This document shows, piece by piece, positions 494 through 14,026 of a DNA stretch of 14,026 nt. The position numbers and the translations under genes are program-made. The stretch covers positions 1 through 14,026 of the forward strand of contig JANMKN010000339.1 of NCBI GenBank assembly GCA_031372065.1. The letters are read 5' to 3'. Numbering within the stretch: the first letter of the stretch is position 1; each line of letters opens with the position of its first letter. The notes under the pieces were generated by a model. It saw only the letters and a program-made list of their open reading frames with translations. It did no database searches and was not told the origin of the DNA. The DNA is from Abditibacteriaceae bacterium. GTDB taxonomy: Bacteria > Armatimonadota > Abditibacteriia > Abditibacteriales > Abditibacteriaceae.

Positions 494-1597
494 ATGCGCG
501 TCAAACCATTTACCGATCAGGGGCACTACACCGAAGTTCATAATTTGGCCTTCGATTACATCATGCCGCGCGTCTCCGGCAGCGCTTGGAAGGTGCTGTG
601 TTTCATCATCCGGCAGACGCGCGGCTGGGGTAAAAAATCAGAGTTCCTGCCGTATGAAGCCATCAAAACCGGAACAGGAATTAAGACCGATGCAACAGTC
701 AGTAAAGCCTTGCAAGAGTTAATGCATGAGGCCAATTGGGGCAGCCCAATCATCTTAAAACAGGACGCTGAAACACGCGGAGTTTCCCAGCGCGAGCCGA
801 CCCGCTATGCCCTGAATCGTGCCTTTGAAATCCGCACGCAGGGCGAACTCGTCCTTCAAAAAATGAAGGACGAAAACAGCGAAACTCGTTCTTCAAAAAA
901 TGAAGGACGAAATGAAGTTCGTCCTTCAAAAAATGAAGCGTCTCGTTCTTCAAAAAATGAAGGACGAAAAACCGCTCCCTATAAGGATACGCGCGGTTTT
1001 ACCGAAGAAAGAAGCGAAGAAAGTTATTATGTAAATGAAGAGGAAGAAGAACGCGTGCGCGAAGACATTTCTTCCTCTTCTTCGCCATCCTCTTCATCCT
1101 CTTCGAGTTCAAATTCTGATGTTTCAAATTTGCTTTCGCCCCTACCTTTGCTTTCAAACCCACCAGTTTTTGCCGCGCTGTGCGATGTCTGCAAATTCTC
1201 ACCAGACAGCGTGACGCCGAAAAATTTAGAGCGGATGCCGCTGCTCATCAAATGGCTTCGCGAAACCGAAGGTGGCTTTTCCGATGATGAAATCGCGGCA
1301 AAAATTCGCGCTTATTTCGCGCACTGGGATTTGGAAAAACCGCCCCATTTGGCGCAAATCCGTAGCGAGTGGCGGCGCATGAAATCTTTGCACGAAAAAC
1401 GAACTGTGCTGCAAGCGCAACAAGAAAACCAACCGGACAAAAACCAAAATGGAAGCTATCCAAAACCTGATTACACAAACGGGATTCGAGAATCCGCTGC
1501 CGAGCGCCGCAGCCGCGAAAAGGGCGATATCTACGAAGACCTCCAGCGCCGTGAACGAGAACTCAATGAGCGCAAACAACGGCTCGGAATTACTTGA
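494..1597 (+). CDS. Phage replication initiator, lambda O-like (N-terminal winged helix, internal origin)
   Basis: N-terminus YTEVHN...SGSAWKVLCFIIRQTRGWGKKSEFL..EAIKTGTGI...TVSKALQEL matches the replication protein O N-terminal pattern. The central repeated peptide SSKNEGR is encoded by iterons. Confidence 0.85.
   Translation: MRVKPFTDQGHYTEVHNLAFDYIMPRVSGSAWKVLCFIIRQTRGWGKKSEFLPYEAIKTGTGIKTDATVSKALQELMHEANWGSPIILKQDAETRGVSQREPTRYALNRAFEIRTQGELVLQKMKDENSETRSSKNEGRNEVRPSKNEASRSSKNEGRKTAPYKDTRGFTEERSEESYYVNEEEEERVREDISSSSSPSSSSSSSSNSDVSNLLSPLPLLSNPPVFAALCDVCKFSPDSVTPKNLERMPLLIKWLRETEGGFSDDEIAAKIRAYFAHWDLEKPPHLAQIRSEWRRMKSLHEKRTVLQAQQENQPDKNQNGSYPKPDYTNGIRESAAERRSREKGDIYEDLQRRERELNERKQRLGIT
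849..967. repeat. Four palindromic iterons, putative replication origin
   Basis: TCGT(C/T)CTTCA-AAAAA-TGAAGGACGA at 849-873, 886-910, 919-943 (right arm degenerate) and 943-967. Each is a hyphenated inverted repeat with an A-tract centre, inside the initiator gene as in lambda ori. Confidence 0.85.
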
Positions 1598-2606: not shown

Positions 2607-2675
2607 ATGGGTCAATTTTGCGTTTTTTTGCCCACATCAACGAGCTTATGGGTCAATTTTGCGTTTTTTTGCCCA
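2607..2675. repeat. Perfect 28-bp direct repeat (ATGGGTCAATTTTGCGTTTTTTTGCCCA x2)
   Basis: Identical copies at 2607-2634 and 2648-2675; the second encodes the C-terminus of the minus-strand RHH gene. Confidence 0.95.
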
Positions 2676-2855
2676 TTCGCGGAGCGCTTCACAAAGCACA
2701 TCTCCCTTGCTGCGATTCGTTTTTTCGCAGGCGGTGCGCAGCAAAGCGACACATTCAGCATCGGCATAAAACGACTCGGTTTTACTGCCTTCGGCTTCTG
2801 GTTTTGGAGGCCGGCCACGCGGCCTTTTTTGCTCTGGTTTCACGTCAGCTTTCAT
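2646..2855 (-). CDS. AT-hook + ribbon-helix-helix (CopG/Arc-like) transcriptional regulator, 69 aa
   Basis: MKADVKPEQKRPRGRPPK (GRP AT-hook), then a TESFYAD strand, helix A and the SKGDVLCEALREW helix B typical of RHH proteins. It is the only convincing minus-strand gene and is divergent from 2987. Confidence 0.75.
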   Translation of the reverse strand: MKADVKPEQKRPRGRPPKPEAEGSKTESFYADAECVALLRTACEKTNRSKGDVLCEALREWAKKRKIDP

Positions 2856-2863
2856 GTTGAAAA

Positions 2864-2926
2864 ATTCTAACAGAATAATTCTAAAATGGGTAGCCAAGCG
2901 GTATTTATTCTGTTAGAATAAATACC
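2864..2926. promoter_or_regulatory. Divergent promoter/operator region
   Basis: 15-bp inverted repeat ATTCTAACAGAATAA (2864-2878) / TTATTCTGTTAGAAT (2905-2919); perfect 12-bp-arm palindrome 2900-2926. Rightward TAGCCA(2891-2896)-N17-TAGAAT(2914-2919) with extended TG. The mirror TGnTAGAAT on the minus strand (2872-2864) faces the RHH gene. Confidence 0.7.
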
Positions 2927-4861: not shown

Positions 4862-5911
4862 ATGGGAAGCGCGTTAGATGCCCGCTTTGATCTCAGCACG
4901 GCACGGCAACATTATGTGCGGATTCAGCCCAAAAAGCCAAAGCCCCTCGTCGAAGATTTGCAGCGCGATTTAAAGTCCGGTTGGCTTTTGCCGTATTTAT
5001 TCCAACTGGACGATTGGGCGTGGGGCCGCTGGAGTTACTGGGCTGATTTGCAATGGAGCGGCGACCTGCCGGCGAAGCCGATTCCCGCCATTGATTTTTG
5101 CTCGCACAATGGCGACTCGCCGTGGGCGCGCAAAATGTGGGAGCGCTGTTTAGATGGCATCGGGCGCAATGGCAGCGGCTCGTGGGCCGGTTGGAGCAGT
5201 TGGGTTTATGTGGATTATTTGTTCGATTGGCTCTTGTATGGTTTTGGGCATGGTGGGCAAAAAGAATTGCCCGCTGAGCCAAAAGGCTGCGAAGGCGCTT
5301 CGATGCGGCTTTACCAATTGTTCGACTTATCGCCTCTGGTGCTTTGGCCGTATGACCACTTGGCCGAACTGCTGGCCGAAACCCATCATGGAAGAGGAAA
5401 CGGATTCTTTCCGACGCCGCACTGCGTGGTGGAAATGATGGTGAGAATGACGATGAGTGAGGGCGATCACCGCGCTGAGACGGTGTGCGATCCATGCGTG
5501 GGCAGTGGCCGGATGCTGCTTCATGCCTCAAATCACAGTCTGCGTCTTTACGGACAGGACATTGACGCCACGCTCTGCAAGGCGACCCTTATCAACGGTT
5601 ATCTGTGGGCGCCGTGGCTGGTGCGCCCGATTGCATGGCTTGACCGCGAAGCTGTGGTCGTCACGGAAAGATTGCAATCGAATGATGAATTCTCTGGTGA
5701 GGATGAGGAAGAAAAAACAGCAGCGATTGCAGTAGCCACCGGCCTGAGTGACCACGCGACAGAAATCGCACCGCTGCACTATCAAGCGCGACTTTTTGAT
5801 ACGGAATTTGACGCCGAAGGGACAAGGAAAACAGCGCCGATTTTGAAACGAAGGAAGCGTGCTGGGGCATCAGAAACACAAACTGAGCAATTGAATTTAT
5901 TGGAGGTTTGA
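4862..5911 (+). CDS. N6-adenine DNA methyltransferase-like protein (SAM-binding half; catalytic NPPY/F motif not seen)
   Basis: GFFPTP (motif X), VCDPCVGSGRML (motif I) and LYGQDID (motif II), as in HsdM/N6_Mtase-type enzymes; no (N/D/S)PP(Y/F) anywhere in the ORF. Confidence 0.75.
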   Translation: MGSALDARFDLSTARQHYVRIQPKKPKPLVEDLQRDLKSGWLLPYLFQLDDWAWGRWSYWADLQWSGDLPAKPIPAIDFCSHNGDSPWARKMWERCLDGIGRNGSGSWAGWSSWVYVDYLFDWLLYGFGHGGQKELPAEPKGCEGASMRLYQLFDLSPLVLWPYDHLAELLAETHHGRGNGFFPTPHCVVEMMVRMTMSEGDHRAETVCDPCVGSGRMLLHASNHSLRLYGQDIDATLCKATLINGYLWAPWLVRPIAWLDREAVVVTERLQSNDEFSGEDEEEKTAAIAVATGLSDHATEIAPLHYQARLFDTEFDAEGTRKTAPILKRRKRAGASETQTEQLNLLEV

Positions 5912-5999
5912 AGACGAAATTATTTGGCGGCAAATAACAATGGTTTGTGGATTTTACGCCGCGCGCGACGGCGAAAAACAAACGCGCGAGAGGAAACAA

Positions 6000-7964
6000 A
6001 TGGCAACGAAAACAAAAAAGAAAACAGGGGAGCAAATGGTTGATAACGTTCCCGATGTGGTTGTCGGTGAACCCGCAAAAACCGCGCAAGTCGCTGTCAA
6101 GGACGGCTTTGAAGCCGTTCCTGAAACGCCAGCCGTGCCCGTGTATGGAGACCCGAAACCGTTTGCTGAGGCGCTTTTAGCACCGACGGGCAATCCCTTG
6201 GAGTGCGACCCCAACGAAGTCGAAACCAATCCGTGGCAGCCGCGCACAATTTTCGATGAATCCGAGATGGAAGATTTGACGGCCAGCGTCAAAGAACACG
6301 GTTTGATTCAGCCGGTTTTGCTGCGATTTTTGCCAGGCGGCCAAAAGCAACTAATCGCCGGCGGTAAGCGCCACGAGGCTTGTCGCCGCGCTGGTGTGCC
6401 GTTGCGCTATTTTGTGCGTGAGGCGACAGACAGCGAATCGGCGGAACTGGCGCTCATTGAGAATTTGCAACGCAGCGATTTGAAGCCAATGGATGAAGCG
6501 CGCGCCTATGACCGCTTACTAAAAGAATTCAAAATGACGCAGGAGGAGCTGGCAAAGCGCGTTCATCGCTCACAGCCGATGATTGCTAATGCGCTGCGCC
6601 TCTTGCATTTGCCCGCCGATGTGCAAAGGCAAATCGGCTTTGGTTTGTCGGCATCGCACGGCTTGGCATTGTGCGCTTTGGATGATGAAACGCACGTTTT
6701 GAATTATGCGTTGCGTGCTGTTGAAGGCGCTTGGTCAGTCAAATCGCTCGAAGCAGAAATTGCCGCGTTTCGACAGGCAGAGGCCGAAAAACAGCAGCCG
6801 TCTTTGCCCGATGAAGGTGAAGAAAGCCGCATTGAACCAGCGCCCGCTAATGCGGTGGATACAATCGAGAACGACAAGCGACTGGTGCTGGCCGTCTTGA
6901 AGCCAGAAGGCGCACTCTGGGGTGCAGTAGTCCATGCGATTGGTATCAATCGTTTTCGCTGTGATAGGGCAATGCGGGAATTGGTCGAGGAAGGCAAAGC
7001 CAAGATCGAAGGCGAGCGCTGGTTTTTAATCCCCTCCTCATCCCAGATCGGCGACCACGACACGCCCAGCTCTACTGAAAAGCGCATCGAAACAACCGAA
7101 CCAGAAACCAACAGGAAGCCCGAAGCTCGAACCGAAGCTGAAACCGAAGAATCCCCGGTTTGCCGTCAGTGTGGAAAAACCGAAGCCGCGGTTACGGCCA
7201 GCGGCGCGCACATGACAAAATTCGATTTGTGCAGCGCGTGCGATCCCGAAGCGCAAGCGGCAACGACAGAAACGGCAACGACAGAAACGGCAACGACGCA
7301 AAAAGATGGCATGGTGTCGGCGATGGATAAAGCGCACGGCGATGTCAGCAAAGTCGCTAAGAACGACTTTGCCATCGGCGCTGGCGTGCAGTGGAATGAT
7401 GGTAGCAAGCCGAAAACCGGCATTATCGCCGAGGTGGGCAGCGCCTTGTATTTCGTGCAGCCGACTGGCACAAACGAAGCCAAGCATCGCAAGACTTTCC
7501 AAAAGAAAAATTGCATCCTGAAGGCGTGGGACAAAAAAAGCGTGCCTGAAATTGGTTCGCAAAATGCGTTTTCTAAAGCTGCGGGAGACGCTAAAACTGC
7601 GGGAGATGCTAAAACAACTGAAATGCCAAGCGTTCCCGAAGGCAAGGTTTGGATTCTGGCTGATGAGAAAGCCCTTTTTGACTGTCAGGATGCCGGGCTT
7701 GGCATTGATGATGTGTTCGGCATCGTGGCGCAATTAGCGAAGATCGGCGCGCCTTTTGGTTTGGGTGTGCCCGATGTTCTAACGACCATCGAAGGTTATT
7801 TCGGCGTGGCGGATGCCTCGGTGGCGGATGTCTCGGTGGCGGATGTCTCGACGGCTGATGAGGCGACAAGCGAAGCCGCTGAAAGCGAAGCCGCTGAAAG
7901 CGAAGCTACCGACGAAGTTGAAAACGAAGCGGAGCCAACCGCCCAAAGCGAAAGTGAGAATTAA
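6000..7964 (+). CDS. parB: ParB/RepB/Spo0J-family protein (PRTRC-associated) with long multi-domain C-terminal extension
   Basis: NPWQPR.IFD...L.ASVKEHGLIQPV...IAGGKRH, ENLQRSDL, HTH TQEELAKRVHRSQPMIANALRLL. Start placed at ATG 6000 after the GAGAGG RBS. Confidence 0.9.
   Translation: MATKTKKKTGEQMVDNVPDVVVGEPAKTAQVAVKDGFEAVPETPAVPVYGDPKPFAEALLAPTGNPLECDPNEVETNPWQPRTIFDESEMEDLTASVKEHGLIQPVLLRFLPGGQKQLIAGGKRHEACRRAGVPLRYFVREATDSESAELALIENLQRSDLKPMDEARAYDRLLKEFKMTQEELAKRVHRSQPMIANALRLLHLPADVQRQIGFGLSASHGLALCALDDETHVLNYALRAVEGAWSVKSLEAEIAAFRQAEAEKQQPSLPDEGEESRIEPAPANAVDTIENDKRLVLAVLKPEGALWGAVVHAIGINRFRCDRAMRELVEEGKAKIEGERWFLIPSSSQIGDHDTPSSTEKRIETTEPETNRKPEARTEAETEESPVCRQCGKTEAAVTASGAHMTKFDLCSACDPEAQAATTETATTETATTQKDGMVSAMDKAHGDVSKVAKNDFAIGAGVQWNDGSKPKTGIIAEVGSALYFVQPTGTNEAKHRKTFQKKNCILKAWDKKSVPEIGSQNAFSKAAGDAKTAGDAKTTEMPSVPEGKVWILADEKALFDCQDAGLGIDDVFGIVAQLAKIGAPFGLGVPDVLTTIEGYFGVADASVADVSVADVSTADEATSEAAESEAAESEATDEVENEAEPTAQSESEN
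7258..7906 (+). repeat. Four in-frame tandem repeats in the ParB tail
   Basis: 15-bp x2.7 (7258-7297, ATTET), 18-bp x2.4 (7573-7615, AGDAKT), 15-bp x3 (7806-7850, VADVS), 15-bp x2.6 (7868-7906, SEAAE). Confidence 0.9.
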
Positions 7965-7967
7965 ATC

Positions 7968-8159
7968 ATGGCAACTGCCAAACCACGCATTTTTATGTTT
8001 GAGGGCAAGCGTCTTCCTGACCTTGACCCATCCAAATCGCCGCAGGAAATCAAAAACCTGCACGCCGCGCAAATTCCAGCGCTGACAACCGCAACCTTTA
8101 AATTTGACCCGGCCAAAAACGAATATGAATTCGTTAAGTCGGCGGGCGTGAAAGGCTAA
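7968..8159 (+). CDS. PRTRC system protein C-like prokaryotic ubiquitin-like protein
   Basis: RIFMFEGKRLPDLDPSKSPQEIKNLHAAQIPALTTA...YEF..SAGVKG-stop: the R.F.f.g..LpDp.p..s.eei...ya...P.L.tA pattern and terminal GxKG of protein C/Prok_Ub. Confidence 0.9.
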   Translation: MATAKPRIFMFEGKRLPDLDPSKSPQEIKNLHAAQIPALTTATFKFDPAKNEYEFVKSAGVKG

Positions 8160-8160
8160 G

Positions 8161-8484
8161 ATGGCGCGCCAAGTGAAAGAGAGTAAGCAATCATGCGAAT
8201 CCAAACCCCAACAAGCGCCTCCTCAATCAATGCTGGGCGCGGCCATCGCAGCGGCCAAAACAGAAGAAGCGGAGCCGTTGCATCCGTTGGCGCTGGCCAT
8301 CTCAGAGGCGCTCGGCGCGAAGTTGAAGCATTACAACGGCTTTCGCCATCGTCCACCGTGCGAAACTCTCGGCGGCGCCCTGAAGCTGGTCGCCGAGAGC
8401 CGCATGGGGCGGCGGGGCGGCTATCCCGCCAATCGTCGCTTGAGCCGACCTTCGCCGTCGGCGATGCTGCCACCCCTTCCGTAG
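8161..8484 (+). CDS. Hypothetical protein overlapping the 5' end of protein F in another frame
   Basis: ATG 1 nt after the protein C stop (TAAGATG); helical-looking PLALAISEALGAKLK. It overlaps ORF 8193 by 292 nt, so it is uncertain. Confidence 0.45.
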   Translation: MARQVKESKQSCESKPQQAPPQSMLGAAIAAAKTEEAEPLHPLALAISEALGAKLKHYNGFRHRPPCETLGGALKLVAESRMGRRGGYPANRRLSRPSPSAMLPPLP

Positions 8485-9620
8485 AACGGCAAATCATTCG
8501 GCAAGTCGTCGCGCCCGTTTGTGCGATGCCACTTCCAAAACTAATAGGCGTGCCCCCACTTTTGAAGTGGGGGCAAAGCCTTGAAGGGCCAAACCGCGCC
8601 GCGATTGCTGAAGGCTTAGTCGCAGCGGGAATGCTGACCGAAAACGATTGGTCGGGCACTCTCAATGCCTCCATTGATTGCGCCCTGCTGCGTTGGATTA
8701 TGGAATCGGGTATTCATCATTCCAATCATCTTGACCTCACTTTGGGACTGCACGCCACACAGGACTCTATCGCGTGGAACACCGATGATTGCGTGCGTCT
8801 TGCCGAGGGCATTGGTAGCGCCGGTGCATTTTTCTTCAAGTTCGATCCTTACGGCGGTCTGCCTTCGTGCCAGTGCGGGCGGCGCGTTTTAGAATTGGAA
8901 GATTTGCACGACGGCGTTGGCTTGGCAGTGCTGGGCATTGTCTGCGAGGCGTTGGAAGAATTTGAAGGCGCCACACCGCGCACCGCATTTGATAAAGCCT
9001 GCCAATGGTGGGATCCCTCAATGGAAGACGAAGAAATTGATTATGAATCGGAGGAGCATCAGCATTTCTTGGGCGAATTACGCCCGCAGGATTTTTACGC
9101 CACGGTGCCCAAAGAAGTCGTCGAATGCAAATCCAACCCTAAACTTTTGCGCAAAGTATTGCGTTCGATTGGCTTTGAAATAGACGGGCCAGAAGGCCGC
9201 ATTTTGCAAGAAGCCCTTGAACTGCATAAAGCATTGCAAACAGTTTCAAAGCGGTGCGGCGCCGGTGGCGATTTGCACCGCGAAGACAACTATTTGCACA
9301 TTCAGGCGCACGCGCTTTATCCCTTTGTTTTGCATTGGAACGAAAGCGACGCGGTGTGGCGCGTTGTGGATGATGAACTGGAAATGCTCTCGCAAATTCC
9401 CGAAGAATGCTGCAATATCGCGTGGCTTTCCAGCTTCACTGTTGAGGACACAGATTCGATTCGCATCGCTGCCGAGCGCCTCAAATCAACCGCGCCGCTT
9501 TTGGTGCATCTCAACGCGCTTTTAAAGGCGTTGCATGATGAGCGTCCGTTTGGCGAAAAAGGCACGCTGTTGAATGTTTTTGAGCGCGAGGAACGGCAGC
9601 AAGTTCGCGCAGCGGTTTGA
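8193..9620 (+). CDS. PRTRC system protein F-like
   Basis: Position between protein C and protein B; MPLPKLIGVP, GRRVLELEDLHDGVGLAVL and LHWNESDAVWRVVDD segments resemble protein F. The true start is uncertain (8193 or later). Confidence 0.75.
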   Translation: MRIQTPTSASSINAGRGHRSGQNRRSGAVASVGAGHLRGARREVEALQRLSPSSTVRNSRRRPEAGRREPHGAAGRLSRQSSLEPTFAVGDAATPSVERQIIRQVVAPVCAMPLPKLIGVPPLLKWGQSLEGPNRAAIAEGLVAAGMLTENDWSGTLNASIDCALLRWIMESGIHHSNHLDLTLGLHATQDSIAWNTDDCVRLAEGIGSAGAFFFKFDPYGGLPSCQCGRRVLELEDLHDGVGLAVLGIVCEALEEFEGATPRTAFDKACQWWDPSMEDEEIDYESEEHQHFLGELRPQDFYATVPKEVVECKSNPKLLRKVLRSIGFEIDGPEGRILQEALELHKALQTVSKRCGAGGDLHREDNYLHIQAHALYPFVLHWNESDAVWRVVDDELEMLSQIPEECCNIAWLSSFTVEDTDSIRIAAERLKSTAPLLVHLNALLKALHDERPFGEKGTLLNVFEREERQQVRAAV

Positions 9621-9661
9621 AGGCGGTTTGAAGACAATCAAAAAAGCTATACAAGGAAACT

Positions 9662-10429
9662 ATGCTCATTGAAACAAATTTCGGTGGCAGCGAAGGCGTG
9701 CAAATGACACTGCGCCATGCGATTCTGCTTTACGGAAACGAATCTACCACCGTTGCCACGCTGCACAGCGTCAAAAGCGAACCGGGATTTCTCGAACCCG
9801 AATTGCTCGAAGGTGCCCCTTTGGAGCGTAAGGACTTTATGGAAATTGCGCGGCGTCTCACGCAAGAAAAAGTCACCGGCTCCGCGCGGCGATTGCTCGA
9901 AACCAATGTGCTTTTGGCCGATGGCGACTTGCTTTGTTGGTATTGGCCCAGCGCGCGGCGCCGTTGGTTTTTCAAAACCGGCAATAACGATTTGGATGCC
10001 TTGAATGGGCGCGAGGCGCTGCACCCCACACTGCTGTTTGTCGCCAAAGAACCGCGCGATTTATATGTGTTTGCTTTGGCTTCGAGCGAGCGCCCGACAC
10101 TCAAAGCGCCGCTTTATCGCGCGCCGTATTGGAACATTTGGAAAAGTGGTCACCTGTGCGAAGGTGCCTTTAAGCTGCCAGAGAACTTCTCGCCCTCTGG
10201 CATCGCCCGTTGGGAGAGCGCCTTTTTCGATACGCACTTTTCGCACCCGGCGGGTGGGGTCGGCGCGCTTTGCAAATACCAAGGCGGTCATACGGCGCTG
10301 TGGCAAGCGATGGCAGCCAGCGGGCGCAAGGCAATGAAACGATTTCCAGCGGAGTGTTTGATTCGGGAATCGCGCGACACGAAAAATGGCGGCAAAAAGC
10401 CGCTGACACTGGGGATGGTGATTGACTGA
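9662..10429 (+). CDS. PRTRC system protein B-like, prokaryotic E2 (family D) ubiquitin-conjugating-like enzyme
   Basis: HPTLLF...LYVFAL...RPTLKAPLYRAPYWNIWKSGHLCEG...WESAFFDTHFSH; candidate catalytic Cys166 (codon 10157-10159); AAGGA RBS. Confidence 0.9.
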   Translation: MLIETNFGGSEGVQMTLRHAILLYGNESTTVATLHSVKSEPGFLEPELLEGAPLERKDFMEIARRLTQEKVTGSARRLLETNVLLADGDLLCWYWPSARRRWFFKTGNNDLDALNGREALHPTLLFVAKEPRDLYVFALASSERPTLKAPLYRAPYWNIWKSGHLCEGAFKLPENFSPSGIARWESAFFDTHFSHPAGGVGALCKYQGGHTALWQAMAASGRKAMKRFPAECLIRESRDTKNGGKKPLTLGMVID

Positions 10430-11346
10430 TGACGCGTAAATCACTCCTAAAACTGCCGGAACAAAAAAGCCCAATTCACGAATGTGCGCCCGCCCTCAAA
10501 CAAGGCGTTATCGAATGCGTTGTCGTTGGCTGTGGCGGCAACGGCGCGCAAATGCTGACCAAATTGGCGCGGCTGGATTATGCCTTGCGTGCCTGCGGGC
10601 ATCCGGGCGGCATTCATGTGAGCGCCTTCGACCCGGATTTCGTCAGTCCGGCCAACATTGGGCGTCAAACCTTTTCGCCGTCGGATGTTGGCCAAAACAA
10701 AGCCGTGCTGCTCATTAGTCGCATCAATGCCTTTTACGGTTTGGATTGGCGCGCCCGCCGTGAGGCGTTTTGCGAGGAAACTTTCGGCGGCGAATATCAG
10801 TTTCCGCGCCACCTGCTTGTAACTTGTGTGGACACCGCTAAAACCCGCCGTGAACTTCATCGCCTGCTCAACGAGGCTGCCACCAAACCGGCGTATTGGC
10901 TGGATTTGGGCAACAACAAAAGCGACGGGCAAGTAATTCTCGGACAGCCCAAAGGCAGTATTCCGATGACTTCGATTCGCAGTGGCGGCAAGATAAAAGG
11001 CCTTCCCTTATCGGCGCGCGAAGCCATTGAAGCGCATCGCTTGCCAGTGGTGACAGAAGTGTTTCCCGAATTGCTTGATTCCAAATACAAAGAAACTGAT
11101 GCGCCATCTTGTTCGGTGGCCGATGCGTTAGCCAAGCAATCGCTTTTTACCAATGACCACATAGTATCGTGGGCGGCGGAGCTTCTCGATCAACTTTTGC
11201 GTAGCGGCCAGATCGCCTATCACGGTGCTTTCATCAATTTGGAAACGGGACGCGTTAATCCGCTGAGTGTGCCAATGCCGGAGGCAGCGAAAGAAGAATC
11301 CAAACAAACAGAGAAAGCGACGAGGATGAGGAAGGTGGCCGCATGA
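10429..11346 (+). CDS. PRTRC system ThiF-family (E1-like) activating enzyme
   Basis: VVVGCGGNG nucleotide-binding loop, DPDFVSPANIGRQ, NKA, CVDT, YWLDLGN, PSCS...QSLFTN (candidate thioester Cys228); TGATG coupling to protein B. Confidence 0.93.
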   Translation: MTRKSLLKLPEQKSPIHECAPALKQGVIECVVVGCGGNGAQMLTKLARLDYALRACGHPGGIHVSAFDPDFVSPANIGRQTFSPSDVGQNKAVLLISRINAFYGLDWRARREAFCEETFGGEYQFPRHLLVTCVDTAKTRRELHRLLNEAATKPAYWLDLGNNKSDGQVILGQPKGSIPMTSIRSGGKIKGLPLSAREAIEAHRLPVVTEVFPELLDSKYKETDAPSCSVADALAKQSLFTNDHIVSWAAELLDQLLRSGQIAYHGAFINLETGRVNPLSVPMPEAAKEESKQTEKATRMRKVAA

Positions 11347-13812: not shown

Positions 13813-14026
13813 AAGCCGCCGTTGAAGCCGTGGACGCGCTCAACAGTTGGGTGCGCTCGGCCTCGTTTAGCCACAGTTTGCGCAACCCACGGCACGCGAT
13901 TTACTGGCTCAAACGCTGTGCTATTGAAGCGGCGCATAACGCCGGACTCGCGCGGCACAAACGCGTTGGAGTCATCGCCACCTGCCGTGATTGCGGCGGC
14001 GCGGGGCGCTATGTTGATAGTTACGG
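13755..14026 (+). CDS. 3'-truncated hypothetical protein with CxxCxGxG motif (absent from the ORF track)
   Basis: GGAGGTG at 13741-13747, ATG 13755, frame open to the window end: MDTCTNDTCTDNSAISDELKAAVEAVDALNSW...AIYWLKRCAIEAA...TCRDCGGAGRYVDSY. Confidence 0.7.
   Translation, partial: MDTCTNDTCTDNSAISDELKAAVEAVDALNSWVRSASFSHSLRNPRHAIYWLKRCAIEAAHNAGLARHKRVGVIATCRDCGGAGRYVDSY

What the first reader, a model, noticed from the sequence alone, without database searches (positions are those of the whole stretch)
6000..11346. Reduced PRTRC ubiquitin-like conjugation cassette (Ubl + E2 + E1 + F + ParB) on a phage-type replicon
Seen: five co-oriented, closely packed genes with motifs of ParB, a 63-aa Ubl ending GVKG, protein F, an E2-like protein with GHLCEG and an E1/ThiF with PSCS. 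Established: this is the PRTRC (ParB-related, ThiF-related cassette) family, mostly described from plasmids and integrative elements, with unknown function; other bacterial E1-E2-Ubl systems (CBASS Cap2, Bil) act in phage defence. Inference: here the cassette sits in the early region of an element with a lambda-O-like initiator and origin, so this may be an element-encoded ubiquitination-like pathway that tags host defence/replication proteins, competing phages or its own ParB/F protein.
Basis: partly seen in the sequence, partly recalled or inferred. Interest (0 to 1): 0.88.

Follow-up and report, generated by a model that had tools for sequence, protein, structure and literature searches.

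The report
Prophage ubiquitin-like cassette with hidden gene
A tailed phage, likely integrated in its host, carries a catalogued but never-tested gene set predicted to attach a ubiquitin-like tag to proteins; this copy lacks the usual tag-trimming protease and holds an overlooked sixth gene, written in a second reading frame under its neighbour, that recurs in related gene sets.

Summary
Observation confirmed. ParB, Ubl, F, E2 and E1 are intact; E2 and E1 pass the PRTRC cut-offs, C166 and C228 are the conserved cysteines, and no JAB or protein E is present. The contig is one branch of an assembly bubble in a tailed temperate phage (terminase, tape measure; integrase and tRNA-Asp att core elsewhere); the other branch lacks the cassette. 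Phage-borne PRTRC is not new (phage Dina in RefSeq, AB2 in print), and this scan has reported JAB-less phage cassettes on other DNA. The new part is a sixth gene, X (8161-8484, 107 aa), starting 1 nt after the Ubl stop and overlapped by F in another frame. An X-like ORF follows the Ubl in 104 of 118 related loci and shows coding-type substitution. It resembles the C-terminal tail of long protein C (hhalign E 4e-6) and is fused to F in a few records. Extensions after the terminal Gly occur in 19 of 81 JAB-bearing loci and 0 of 51 JAB-less ones. Best reading: a ready-made tag, E1-to-E2 relay, F-X as likely adaptor, probably irreversible tagging at replicating DNA. Targets untested. New variant of a known kind.

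The parts
5940..7964 (+). ParB/Spo0J-type protein (start 5940, 6000 or 6036); ParB_N + HTH, long linker, and a small C-terminal domain shared with the ParBs of related cassettes
   Evidence: PF02195, PF17762, TIGR00180 over cut-off; TIGR03734 under
7968..8159 (+). Ubiquitin-like protein (PRTRC C), 63 aa, ends at Gly63 followed directly by the stop
   Evidence: PF14454 44.3 bits, over cut-off
8161..8484 (+).
   Evidence: no Pfam, NCBIfam or PHROG family
8193..8484 (+). Dual-coding stretch: F's N-terminal extension (-1 frame relative to X) runs under X
   Evidence: (F frame open in 0.94% of 5000 synonymous resamplings of X)
8193..9620 (+). Protein F (alpha-helical PRTRC protein), 475 aa from ATG 8193; folded core begins near 8526
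   Evidence: TIGR03742 E 5e-8, under cut-off; iterative profile links it to the F of Dina; model pLDDT 80.9
9662..10429 (+). E2-like protein (PRTRC B, Prok-E2_D); C166 and downstream H195
   Evidence: C166 in 157 of 157, H195 in 156 of 157; top structural rows are UBC-fold E2s, Z up to 4.7
10429..11346 (+). E1/ThiF-family adenylating enzyme; GxGxxG loop, D68, R79, K91, D135, C228
   Evidence: (C228 in 124 of 125)
494..1597 (+). Context: lambda-O-like replication initiator
846..969 (.). Context: four 30-nt repeats with internal dyad symmetry inside the initiator gene (iteron-like origin, inferred)
   Evidence: D1, I3, I4
4862..5911 (+). Context: N6 DNA-methylase-like gene directly before ParB
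   Evidence: PF02384 30.8 bits
1..141 (.). Context: exact overlap with the end of contig C203 (early region of the phage)
13886..14026 (.). Context: exact overlap with the start of contig C145 (terminase, tape measure)

Best explanation
This is an intact six-gene, JAB-less PRTRC cassette in the early region of a tailed phage, predicted to attach its ready-made ubiquitin-like tag to proteins, most likely ones working on the phage's replicating DNA. Shown: the gene set, the terminal Gly63 with no extension, the conserved catalytic residues, and gene X under F. Inferred from E1/E2 chemistry (Bil, eukaryotic systems): E1 adenylates Gly63, takes the tag on C228 and passes it to E2 C166. Inferred, weaker: F with X bound acts as the E3-like adaptor, and the overlap of X and F couples their synthesis; ParB loads on element DNA and brings the machinery there in place of the missing protein E. 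With no JAB the tag needs no trimming and is probably not removed. The cassette is accessory: a sister version of the same phage region lacks it.
For: Cut-offs passed by E1, E2 and Prok_Ub. C166 in 157 of 157 and C228 in 124 of 125 distinct relatives, while none of the other three E2 cysteines is conserved. 23 of the top 25 rows for the E2 model are UBC-fold chains, over residues about 79-236. Extension after the terminal Gly in 19 of 81 JAB-bearing and 0 of 51 JAB-less loci. X is conserved and coding, occurs fused behind the Ubl and fused in front of F (L067; P0035, P0059). ParB lies within 120 nt of the Ubl in 9 of the 11 loci of this group, and protein E was found in none of the 11. Neighbours are replication genes here and in relatives: primase/helicase (L060, L027), initiator (L069). 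Protein E of other lineages often ends in clamp-motif-like peptides such as QPELF and QASLF.
Against: No conjugate, target or expression was observed. E2 structural matches are weak (best Z 4.7, rmsd 4.1 over 99 residues; Foldseek none at E <= 0.001). F has no clear solved relative, so the E3-like role is only a guess. No canonical clamp motif was found in any of the six cassette proteins (one search scanned five of them plus X; only a QPSL-type peptide after the ParB core). A related phage record has E2 and E1 with no Ubl, F or ParB nearby and no Prok_Ub match (L027; record 50% complete). 62 of 81 JAB-bearing loci also end at the Gly, so a ready-made tag does not itself predict JAB loss. X-F fusions are few and could be frameshift errors.
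Confidence: 0.55

Rival explanations
1. The cascade conjugates the tag, but to host defence proteins, as phage counter-defence during early infection or induction.
For: Early-region position beside two DNA methylase genes; accessory and swappable; an irreversible tag would suit inactivation (inference).
Against: The same cassette is common on plasmids (209 plasmid records match the E2) and is kept with ParB; no anti-defence evidence of any kind was found.
Confidence: 0.15
2. A lysogen-expressed defence like Bil, tagging proteins of competing phages.
For: Bil uses Ubl, E1, E2 against phage (passages of 10.1101/2023.09.26.559546 and PMC11601596); prophages often carry defence cargo (own knowledge).
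Against: It sits co-oriented within the lytic early operon, not as an opposite-strand moron; PADLOC gives only weak E1-domain matches (E >= 7e-5) and none for the other five proteins.
Confidence: 0.12
3. The Ubl relay ends on a non-protein acceptor (DNA, RNA or a small molecule), with F as the enzyme.
For: F keeps acidic residues (D393 in 80 of 81; E/D at 276, 386, 394); Iyer 2006 suggested that the helical protein may be an enzyme; weak, repeated resemblance of an F subdomain to HPF/RaiA nucleic-acid-binding folds (best Z 5.2).
Against: The HPF resemblance is below the level the tool calls meaningful; a conserved E2 cysteine fits amide or ester transfer to protein better (inference).
Confidence: 0.1
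4. Inactive cargo: a cassette decaying after loss of A and E.
For: F, C and ParB fall under their NCBIfam cut-offs; the sister branch lacks the cassette; L027 keeps only E2 and E1.
Against: All six ORFs are intact, catalytic residues are kept, and the same A-less, E-less layout recurs across several families of the phylum.
Confidence: 0.08

Closest known systems
PRTRC system (NCBIfam TIGR03734-03742) = operon type 6d of Iyer, Burroughs and Aravind 2006 (PMC1779556)
   Same: Ubl with terminal Gly, alpha-helical protein F, E2 with Cys and downstream His, E1/ThiF, ParB upstream; order C-F-B-ThiF; mobile-element location; function untested in the papers seen.
   Different: No JAB (A), E or D; ParB is a different subfamily placed directly before the Ubl; gene X is in neither the 2006 description (section 14 and Table 1 row 6d read) nor the NCBIfam set.
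PRTRC cassettes of phages Dina (NC_055026), BgVeeders33 and AB2 (PMC13366799)
   Same: Phage-borne cassette; AB2 is a lambda-like temperate phage integrated at a tRNA gene.
   Different: Dina and AB2 keep A and E; Dina's protein C is 129 aa with a 62-aa tail after the Gly, where this phage has a stop and a separate gene X.
Plasmid PRTRC of Burkholderia sp. IDO3 p1 (NZ_CP028965)
   Same: N6 methylase, ParB, then C, a 72-aa hypothetical (WP_059888121.1) that matches the X profile (E 2e-6 among 6 test sequences), F, B, ThiF.
   Different: Conjugative plasmid; keeps E and A; Ubl has a 3-residue extension after the Gly.
BilABCD (bacterial ISG15-like) defence system
   Same: Ubl, E1 and E2 with catalytic cysteines; the model for the predicted chemistry.
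   Different: Bil has a two-lobed E1 with CYS domain and a DUB that trims the Ubl; no F, X or ParB; this E1 is a single ThiF domain; no Bil chain appears among the PDB sequence matches of E1 or E2.

Membership tests
PRTRC / operon 6d | ThiF-family E1 (TIGR03736) | tested here: met
   278.9 bits vs 144.75
PRTRC / operon 6d | E2-like protein B with Cys and downstream His (TIGR03737, PF14460) | tested here: met
   163 vs 131.45 bits; C166, H195 conserved
PRTRC / operon 6d | Small Ubl with terminal Gly (protein C) | tested here: met
   PF14454 44.3 vs 25; TIGR03738 41.7 vs 45.95, just under, E 9e-11
PRTRC / operon 6d | Alpha-helical protein F | tested here: met
   TIGR03742 full-length match E 5e-8 but under cut-off; iterative profile from this protein reaches Dina F at E 8e-11 in round 2; same position
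PRTRC / operon 6d | JAB peptidase (protein A) in the cassette | tested here: not met
   E2 and E1 overlap by 1 nt; no hit in the window; the genome's two Prok-JAB matches lie on other contigs, one beside a cysteine-synthase-like ORF
PRTRC / operon 6d | Protein E (and D) | tested here: not met
   No NCBIfam hit; iterated E profile finds none; ParB C-terminal domain vs E profile probability 0.1
PRTRC / operon 6d | PRTRC-type ParB (TIGR03734) | tested here: not met
   89.3 vs 278.6 bits; a generic ParB (TIGR00180 over cut-off) takes the place
PRTRC / operon 6d | Covalent Ubl transfer through E1 and E2 | not testable with these tools
   Needs biochemistry; untested for the family in the papers seen
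UBC-fold E2 | Structural match to solved E2s | tested here: inconclusive
   23 of top 25 rows are UBC-fold chains but best Z 4.7, rmsd 4.1, 99 aligned; Foldseek none at E <= 0.001
Tailed temperate phage | Terminase and tail genes joined to the region | tested here: met
   141-nt exact overlap to C145; TerS E 7e-11, TerL E 2e-24, tape measure E 2e-11. Portal and capsid candidates have no family match
Tailed temperate phage | Integrase and att sites flanking the element | tested here: inconclusive
   44-bp core on C203 equals the 3' end of tRNA-Asp on C231, next to a PF00589 integrase; the path from C145/C37 to C231 is not joined
Bil / CBASS Cap2 defence systems | PADLOC profiles for the components | tested here: not met
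   Only weak E1-domain matches (E 7e-5 to 9e-4) to E1-E2 models; none for the other five proteins (library of 2023)

The most novel reading that the evidence does not exclude
PRTRC has a hidden core subunit. Gene X, encoded under F in a second frame, is a cofactor that is made free, released from the Ubl by JAB, or fused to F, and the F-X pair is a new bacterial E3-like ligase of unknown fold. In this phage lineage a dedicated ParB delivers it to DNA, so the phage tags replication or partition proteins irreversibly. Earlier or future reconstitutions built from annotated genes alone would fail for lack of X.
Probability: 0.3. Interest if true: 0.75.

Novelty: new variant of a known kind. Interest (0 to 1): 0.5.

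Why it matters
PRTRC is a widespread bacterial E1-E2-Ubl class with no tested function in the papers seen. This copy is a compact, apparently self-sufficient version: no protease is needed to mature the tag, so conjugates should accumulate, and a sister phage region without it is a natural control. The sixth gene changes the parts list. It overlaps F, is annotated in some records and not in others, and would be lost by recoding or by cloning only the named genes. The phage setting and the JAB loss alone are not news.

Tried and rejected
Programmed +1 frameshift at the Ubl stop: suggested because X lacks a downstream start in 17 loci, all in the +1 frame; rejected because all 17 have an in-frame ATG/GTG/TTG within the last 90 nt of the Ubl gene, 15 of 17 with a Shine-Dalgarno-like site of -5 kcal/mol or better, against 12 of 79 control loci (kin not independent), and this window's X has its own ATG. 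Stop read-through into F: a second stop lies 8 codons on. ParB-E fusion: no profile similarity. Host JAB acting in trans: not supported, not excluded. Conjugative context: no relaxase or T4SS family among the 62 flank proteins scanned. F fold: no match at E <= 0.001 in PDB or BFVD (best viral row an uncharacterised phage protein, E 1.7e-3), VIA best Z 5.2, no PDB sequence match; the Atlas listed only type III secretion gatekeepers at 0.82, within the range of shuffled proteins. The X profile found no Ubl-fused protein among 113 representatives at E <= 0.001 (judged by length and match position; 12 were read) and does not match the sphingomonad ORF at the X position (E 0.21). Viral scan with the E2 found no relative. 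No RNA holder listed. N6 methylase, DUF6573 and two other upstream ORFs were found in no other locus. The E1 tree is a quick tree only.
Full report
1. Observation. E1 and E2 pass their PRTRC cut-offs, the Ubl passes Pfam Prok_Ub and just misses TIGR03738, F matches TIGR03742 over its whole length but under cut-off, and ParB is a generic ParB rather than the TIGR03734 type. C166 and C228 are at the stated places and are the conserved ones: 157 of 157 and 124 of 125 distinct relatives. No JAB (A), E or D gene is present; E2 and E1 overlap by one base where A normally lies.

2. Context. The window is the whole of contig C186. Exact 141-nt end overlaps give an assembly bubble: C203 leads to either C186 (14.0 kb) or C185 (6.9 kb), and both lead to C145. 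C203 carries a repressor-like gene, an excisionase-like gene and the start of the ORF that runs into the window; C145 carries a resolvase, small and large terminase and a tape-measure protein. Portal and capsid candidates have no family match. A 44-bp stretch of C203 equals the 3' end of a tRNA-Asp on C231, beside a tyrosine integrase, which suggests a prophage, but C231 is not joined to the rest. C185 has a different initiator with a DnaC-like loader, related dcm and HD-like genes, and no cassette gene; tblastn finds no second copy of Ubl, X, F, E2 or E1 in the genome. In run X1 the window's contigs have depth 5.5-9.1, pieces that differ like the other branch 8.9-9.8 and the flanks 14.8-17.6, which fits two versions at similar abundance; strain alleles or two prophages cannot be told apart. 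The cassette is therefore accessory. Same-phylum loci reappear under Armatimonadota titles. Ten of 401 genomes of the phylum, this one included, have an E1 over cut-off; none of the 26 other genomes of its family does.

3. How unusual is the layout? Loci were gathered through the E1: 21 and 46 from IMG/VR, the best 80 of 129 genome and the best 80 of at least 538 metagenome matches, 12 same-phylum regions and phage Dina. The set is rich in sphingomonads and Acidobacteria-like contigs, so counts are not independent. Of 133 loci with a distinct Ubl in view, 51 have no JAB and 82 have one. JAB loss is thus common. Residues after the terminal Gly occur in 19 of 81 JAB-bearing loci and 0 of 51 JAB-less loci (L095 dropped as a frameshifted read, L069 recounted because the parser cut at an inner Gly). 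The 11 loci closest in layout (window, L060-L065, L067, L069, L075, L196) lack A and E; ParB lies within 120 nt of the Ubl in 9, somewhat further in L064, and only its C-terminal part is on the cut contig of L063; all 11 share a small C-terminal ParB domain by alignment. A quick E1 tree puts the window with most of these in a group of support 82. Their neighbours are phage-type replication genes or integrases where tested.

4. Gene X. ORF 8161-8484 starts one base after the Ubl stop and is overlapped by F from 8193. A rule written after seeing the first loci (ORF ending 150-345 nt after the Ubl stop in a Pro-rich motif) finds such an ORF in 104 of 118 loci whose Ubl has no long tail; one pick (L164) is wrong, and the 14 misses include L067, where X runs in frame into F. 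Evidence that it is a gene: substitutions are highest at its third codon position in 6 of 6 groups of relatives; it nearly always has a start next to the Ubl stop, and where it has none (17 loci) a start with a Shine-Dalgarno-like site lies inside the Ubl's 3' end; a profile of 39 members finds 113 cluster representatives at E <= 0.001, mostly 65-100-aa stand-alone proteins; of 10 looked up, most are unnamed or hypothetical. RefSeq calls it as a hypothetical in a Burkholderia plasmid cassette and omits it in a Sphingopyxis one. Evidence of homology to the tail of long protein C: profile-profile probability 86.9, E 4.2e-6, 65 columns against 7 fused tails; 40 column shuffles reach at most score 10.4 against 31.5, and E is 0.0012 without the Pro-rich end; over 25,331 reading-frame segments the X profile gives 62 hits at E <= 0.01, of which 53 end 100-500 nt after a Ubl stop (these include the training members and duplicates), 7 lie on loci with no Ubl in view, 1 is a fused tail (L202, E 6e-4) and 1 lies 609 nt on. 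Against: the match is moderate, Dina's tail aligns poorly, about half of the long tails are unrelated to X, and the sphingomonad ORF at the same place is not matched (E 0.21). Four fused tails sit inside a supported clade of split loci, so fusion can be the later state; I do not claim a direction.

5. Dual coding. In 9 of 9 loci examined of this group (window, L060-L065, L075, L196) the F frame has an ATG 3-43 nt after the Ubl stop and stays open under X (L060 read, as the automatic call took a wrong frame). Given X's protein and local codon use, the F frame is open in 0.94% of 5000 resamplings; the reverse test gives 26%. ATG 8193 has a weak ribosome-binding site and ATG 8526 none. I infer that F is translated from 8193, coupled to the Ubl stop, with a poorly conserved extension.

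6. Structures. The F model (pLDDT 80.9, pTM 0.81) has no clear solved relative. The E2 model (pLDDT 89.1) returns UBC-fold chains in 23 of the top 25 rows, at low Z (4.7, rmsd 4.1, 99 aligned). The E1 profile matches UBA6, UBA1, UBA3, ThiF and UBA5 over the nucleotide-binding part. Binding between X and F could not be tested.

7. Mechanism. Shown: genes, residues, terminal Gly, overlap, phage linkage. Inferred from Bil and eukaryotic chemistry: adenylation of Gly63, thioester on C228, transfer to C166. Inferred more weakly: F-X as adaptor (co-translation, fusions), ParB as DNA-localising partner, replication proteins as targets (gene neighbourhood; clamp-like tails on protein E in other lineages, a lead first met in this scan's notes). 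This cassette has no E and no canonical clamp motif, so the clamp idea is not supported by its own sequence.

8. What is in print. PMC1779556: section 14 and passages including Table 1 row 6d read; it describes Ubl, helical protein, E2, JAB and E1, says a JAB is always fused or adjacent, and mentions no X-like gene in that text. Its supplements are held cut (file 1 gave 19,865 characters), and I did not see the 6d listing, which may hold JAB-less operons or small ORFs. PMC13366799: section 13 read; PRTRC in temperate phage AB2, function unstudied. bioRxiv 10.64898/2026.10.01.756045: passages; PRTRC B is a mutation hotspot in a gut prophage. PMC3318190, PMC11601596 and 10.1101/2023.09.26.559546: passages. 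Two Burroughs papers were not held. Six searches showed no functional study of PRTRC in their listings; none was aimed at X, which has no name, so its absence from print is not established. This scan has reported phage-borne and JAB-less PRTRC cassettes on other DNA several times; two notes mention a sixth gene or an 'x', and a word search for an overlapping or split-tail ORF found nothing.

9. Verdict. Real, correctly identified, and less surprising than scored. It fails the JAB, E and PRTRC-ParB criteria, so it is a reduced variant that works like PRTRC, not a canonical member. The added value is gene X, its overlap with F and the tail-implies-JAB rule. Interest 0.5.

Noticed in passing
G000 contigs C185 (L004) and C186 (window): The two bubble branches swap the whole replication module: O-like initiator with internal repeats plus an orphan 296-aa ORF here, HTH initiator plus DnaC-like loader and DUF5131 there.
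   Followed up: partly
L027:8801-10912: A phage with a similar portal-like gene carries E2 and E1 only; its E2 has a different N-terminus and no Ubl, F or ParB was seen nearby or by Prok_Ub search of the 50%-complete record.
   Followed up: partly
window 6793-6807 (ParB residues about 285-289) and ParBs of L060, L061, L067, L196: A QPxL/M peptide follows the ParB core (QPSLP here, QPKLF in L061); it resembles the QPELF/QPALF ends of protein E and might replace them.
   Followed up: partly
window 4862-5911: The N6-methylase-like protein ends in QLNLLEV, close to a clamp-binding motif; an N6 methylase also precedes ParB in the Burkholderia plasmid cassette (L278), though the two show no blastp match.
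   Followed up: partly
window 9662-9895 (E2 residues 14-78): The E2 model has an N-terminal beta-beta-beta-alpha part outside the UBC fold, with weak matches to COMM domains (Z up to 3.7), possibly a dimerisation module.
   Followed up: no
window 2607-2634 and 2648-2675: Two identical 28-nt repeats in the AT-rich gap before a divergent ribbon-helix-helix-like ORF (2646-2897, minus strand); also a 20-nt inverted pair at 2574-2593 and 5918-5937, the second just before ParB. Possible operators or parS-like sites.
   Followed up: no
L005:703-9078 (C145): PAPS-reductase-like gene, ParB-like gene, ABC-ATPase/GNAT protein and formyltransferase just before the terminase, suggestive of a DNA-modification cluster.
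   Followed up: no
L003:1415-6411 (C203): ParB-HTH protein, N4/N6 methylase and GmrSD-like protein between the att core and the repressor: likely defence cargo of the prophage.
   Followed up: no
L220, L213, L226, L071, L078: Long Ubl tails unrelated to X; L220 has both a tail and a separate X, so JAB-bearing loci tolerate arbitrary extensions.
   Followed up: partly
sphingomonad loci, e.g. L138, L279: F's first ATG lies about 70-75 nt after the Ubl stop, in the middle of the X-position ORF and in a different relative frame than in this window, so the overlap arose or shifted more than once.
   Followed up: partly
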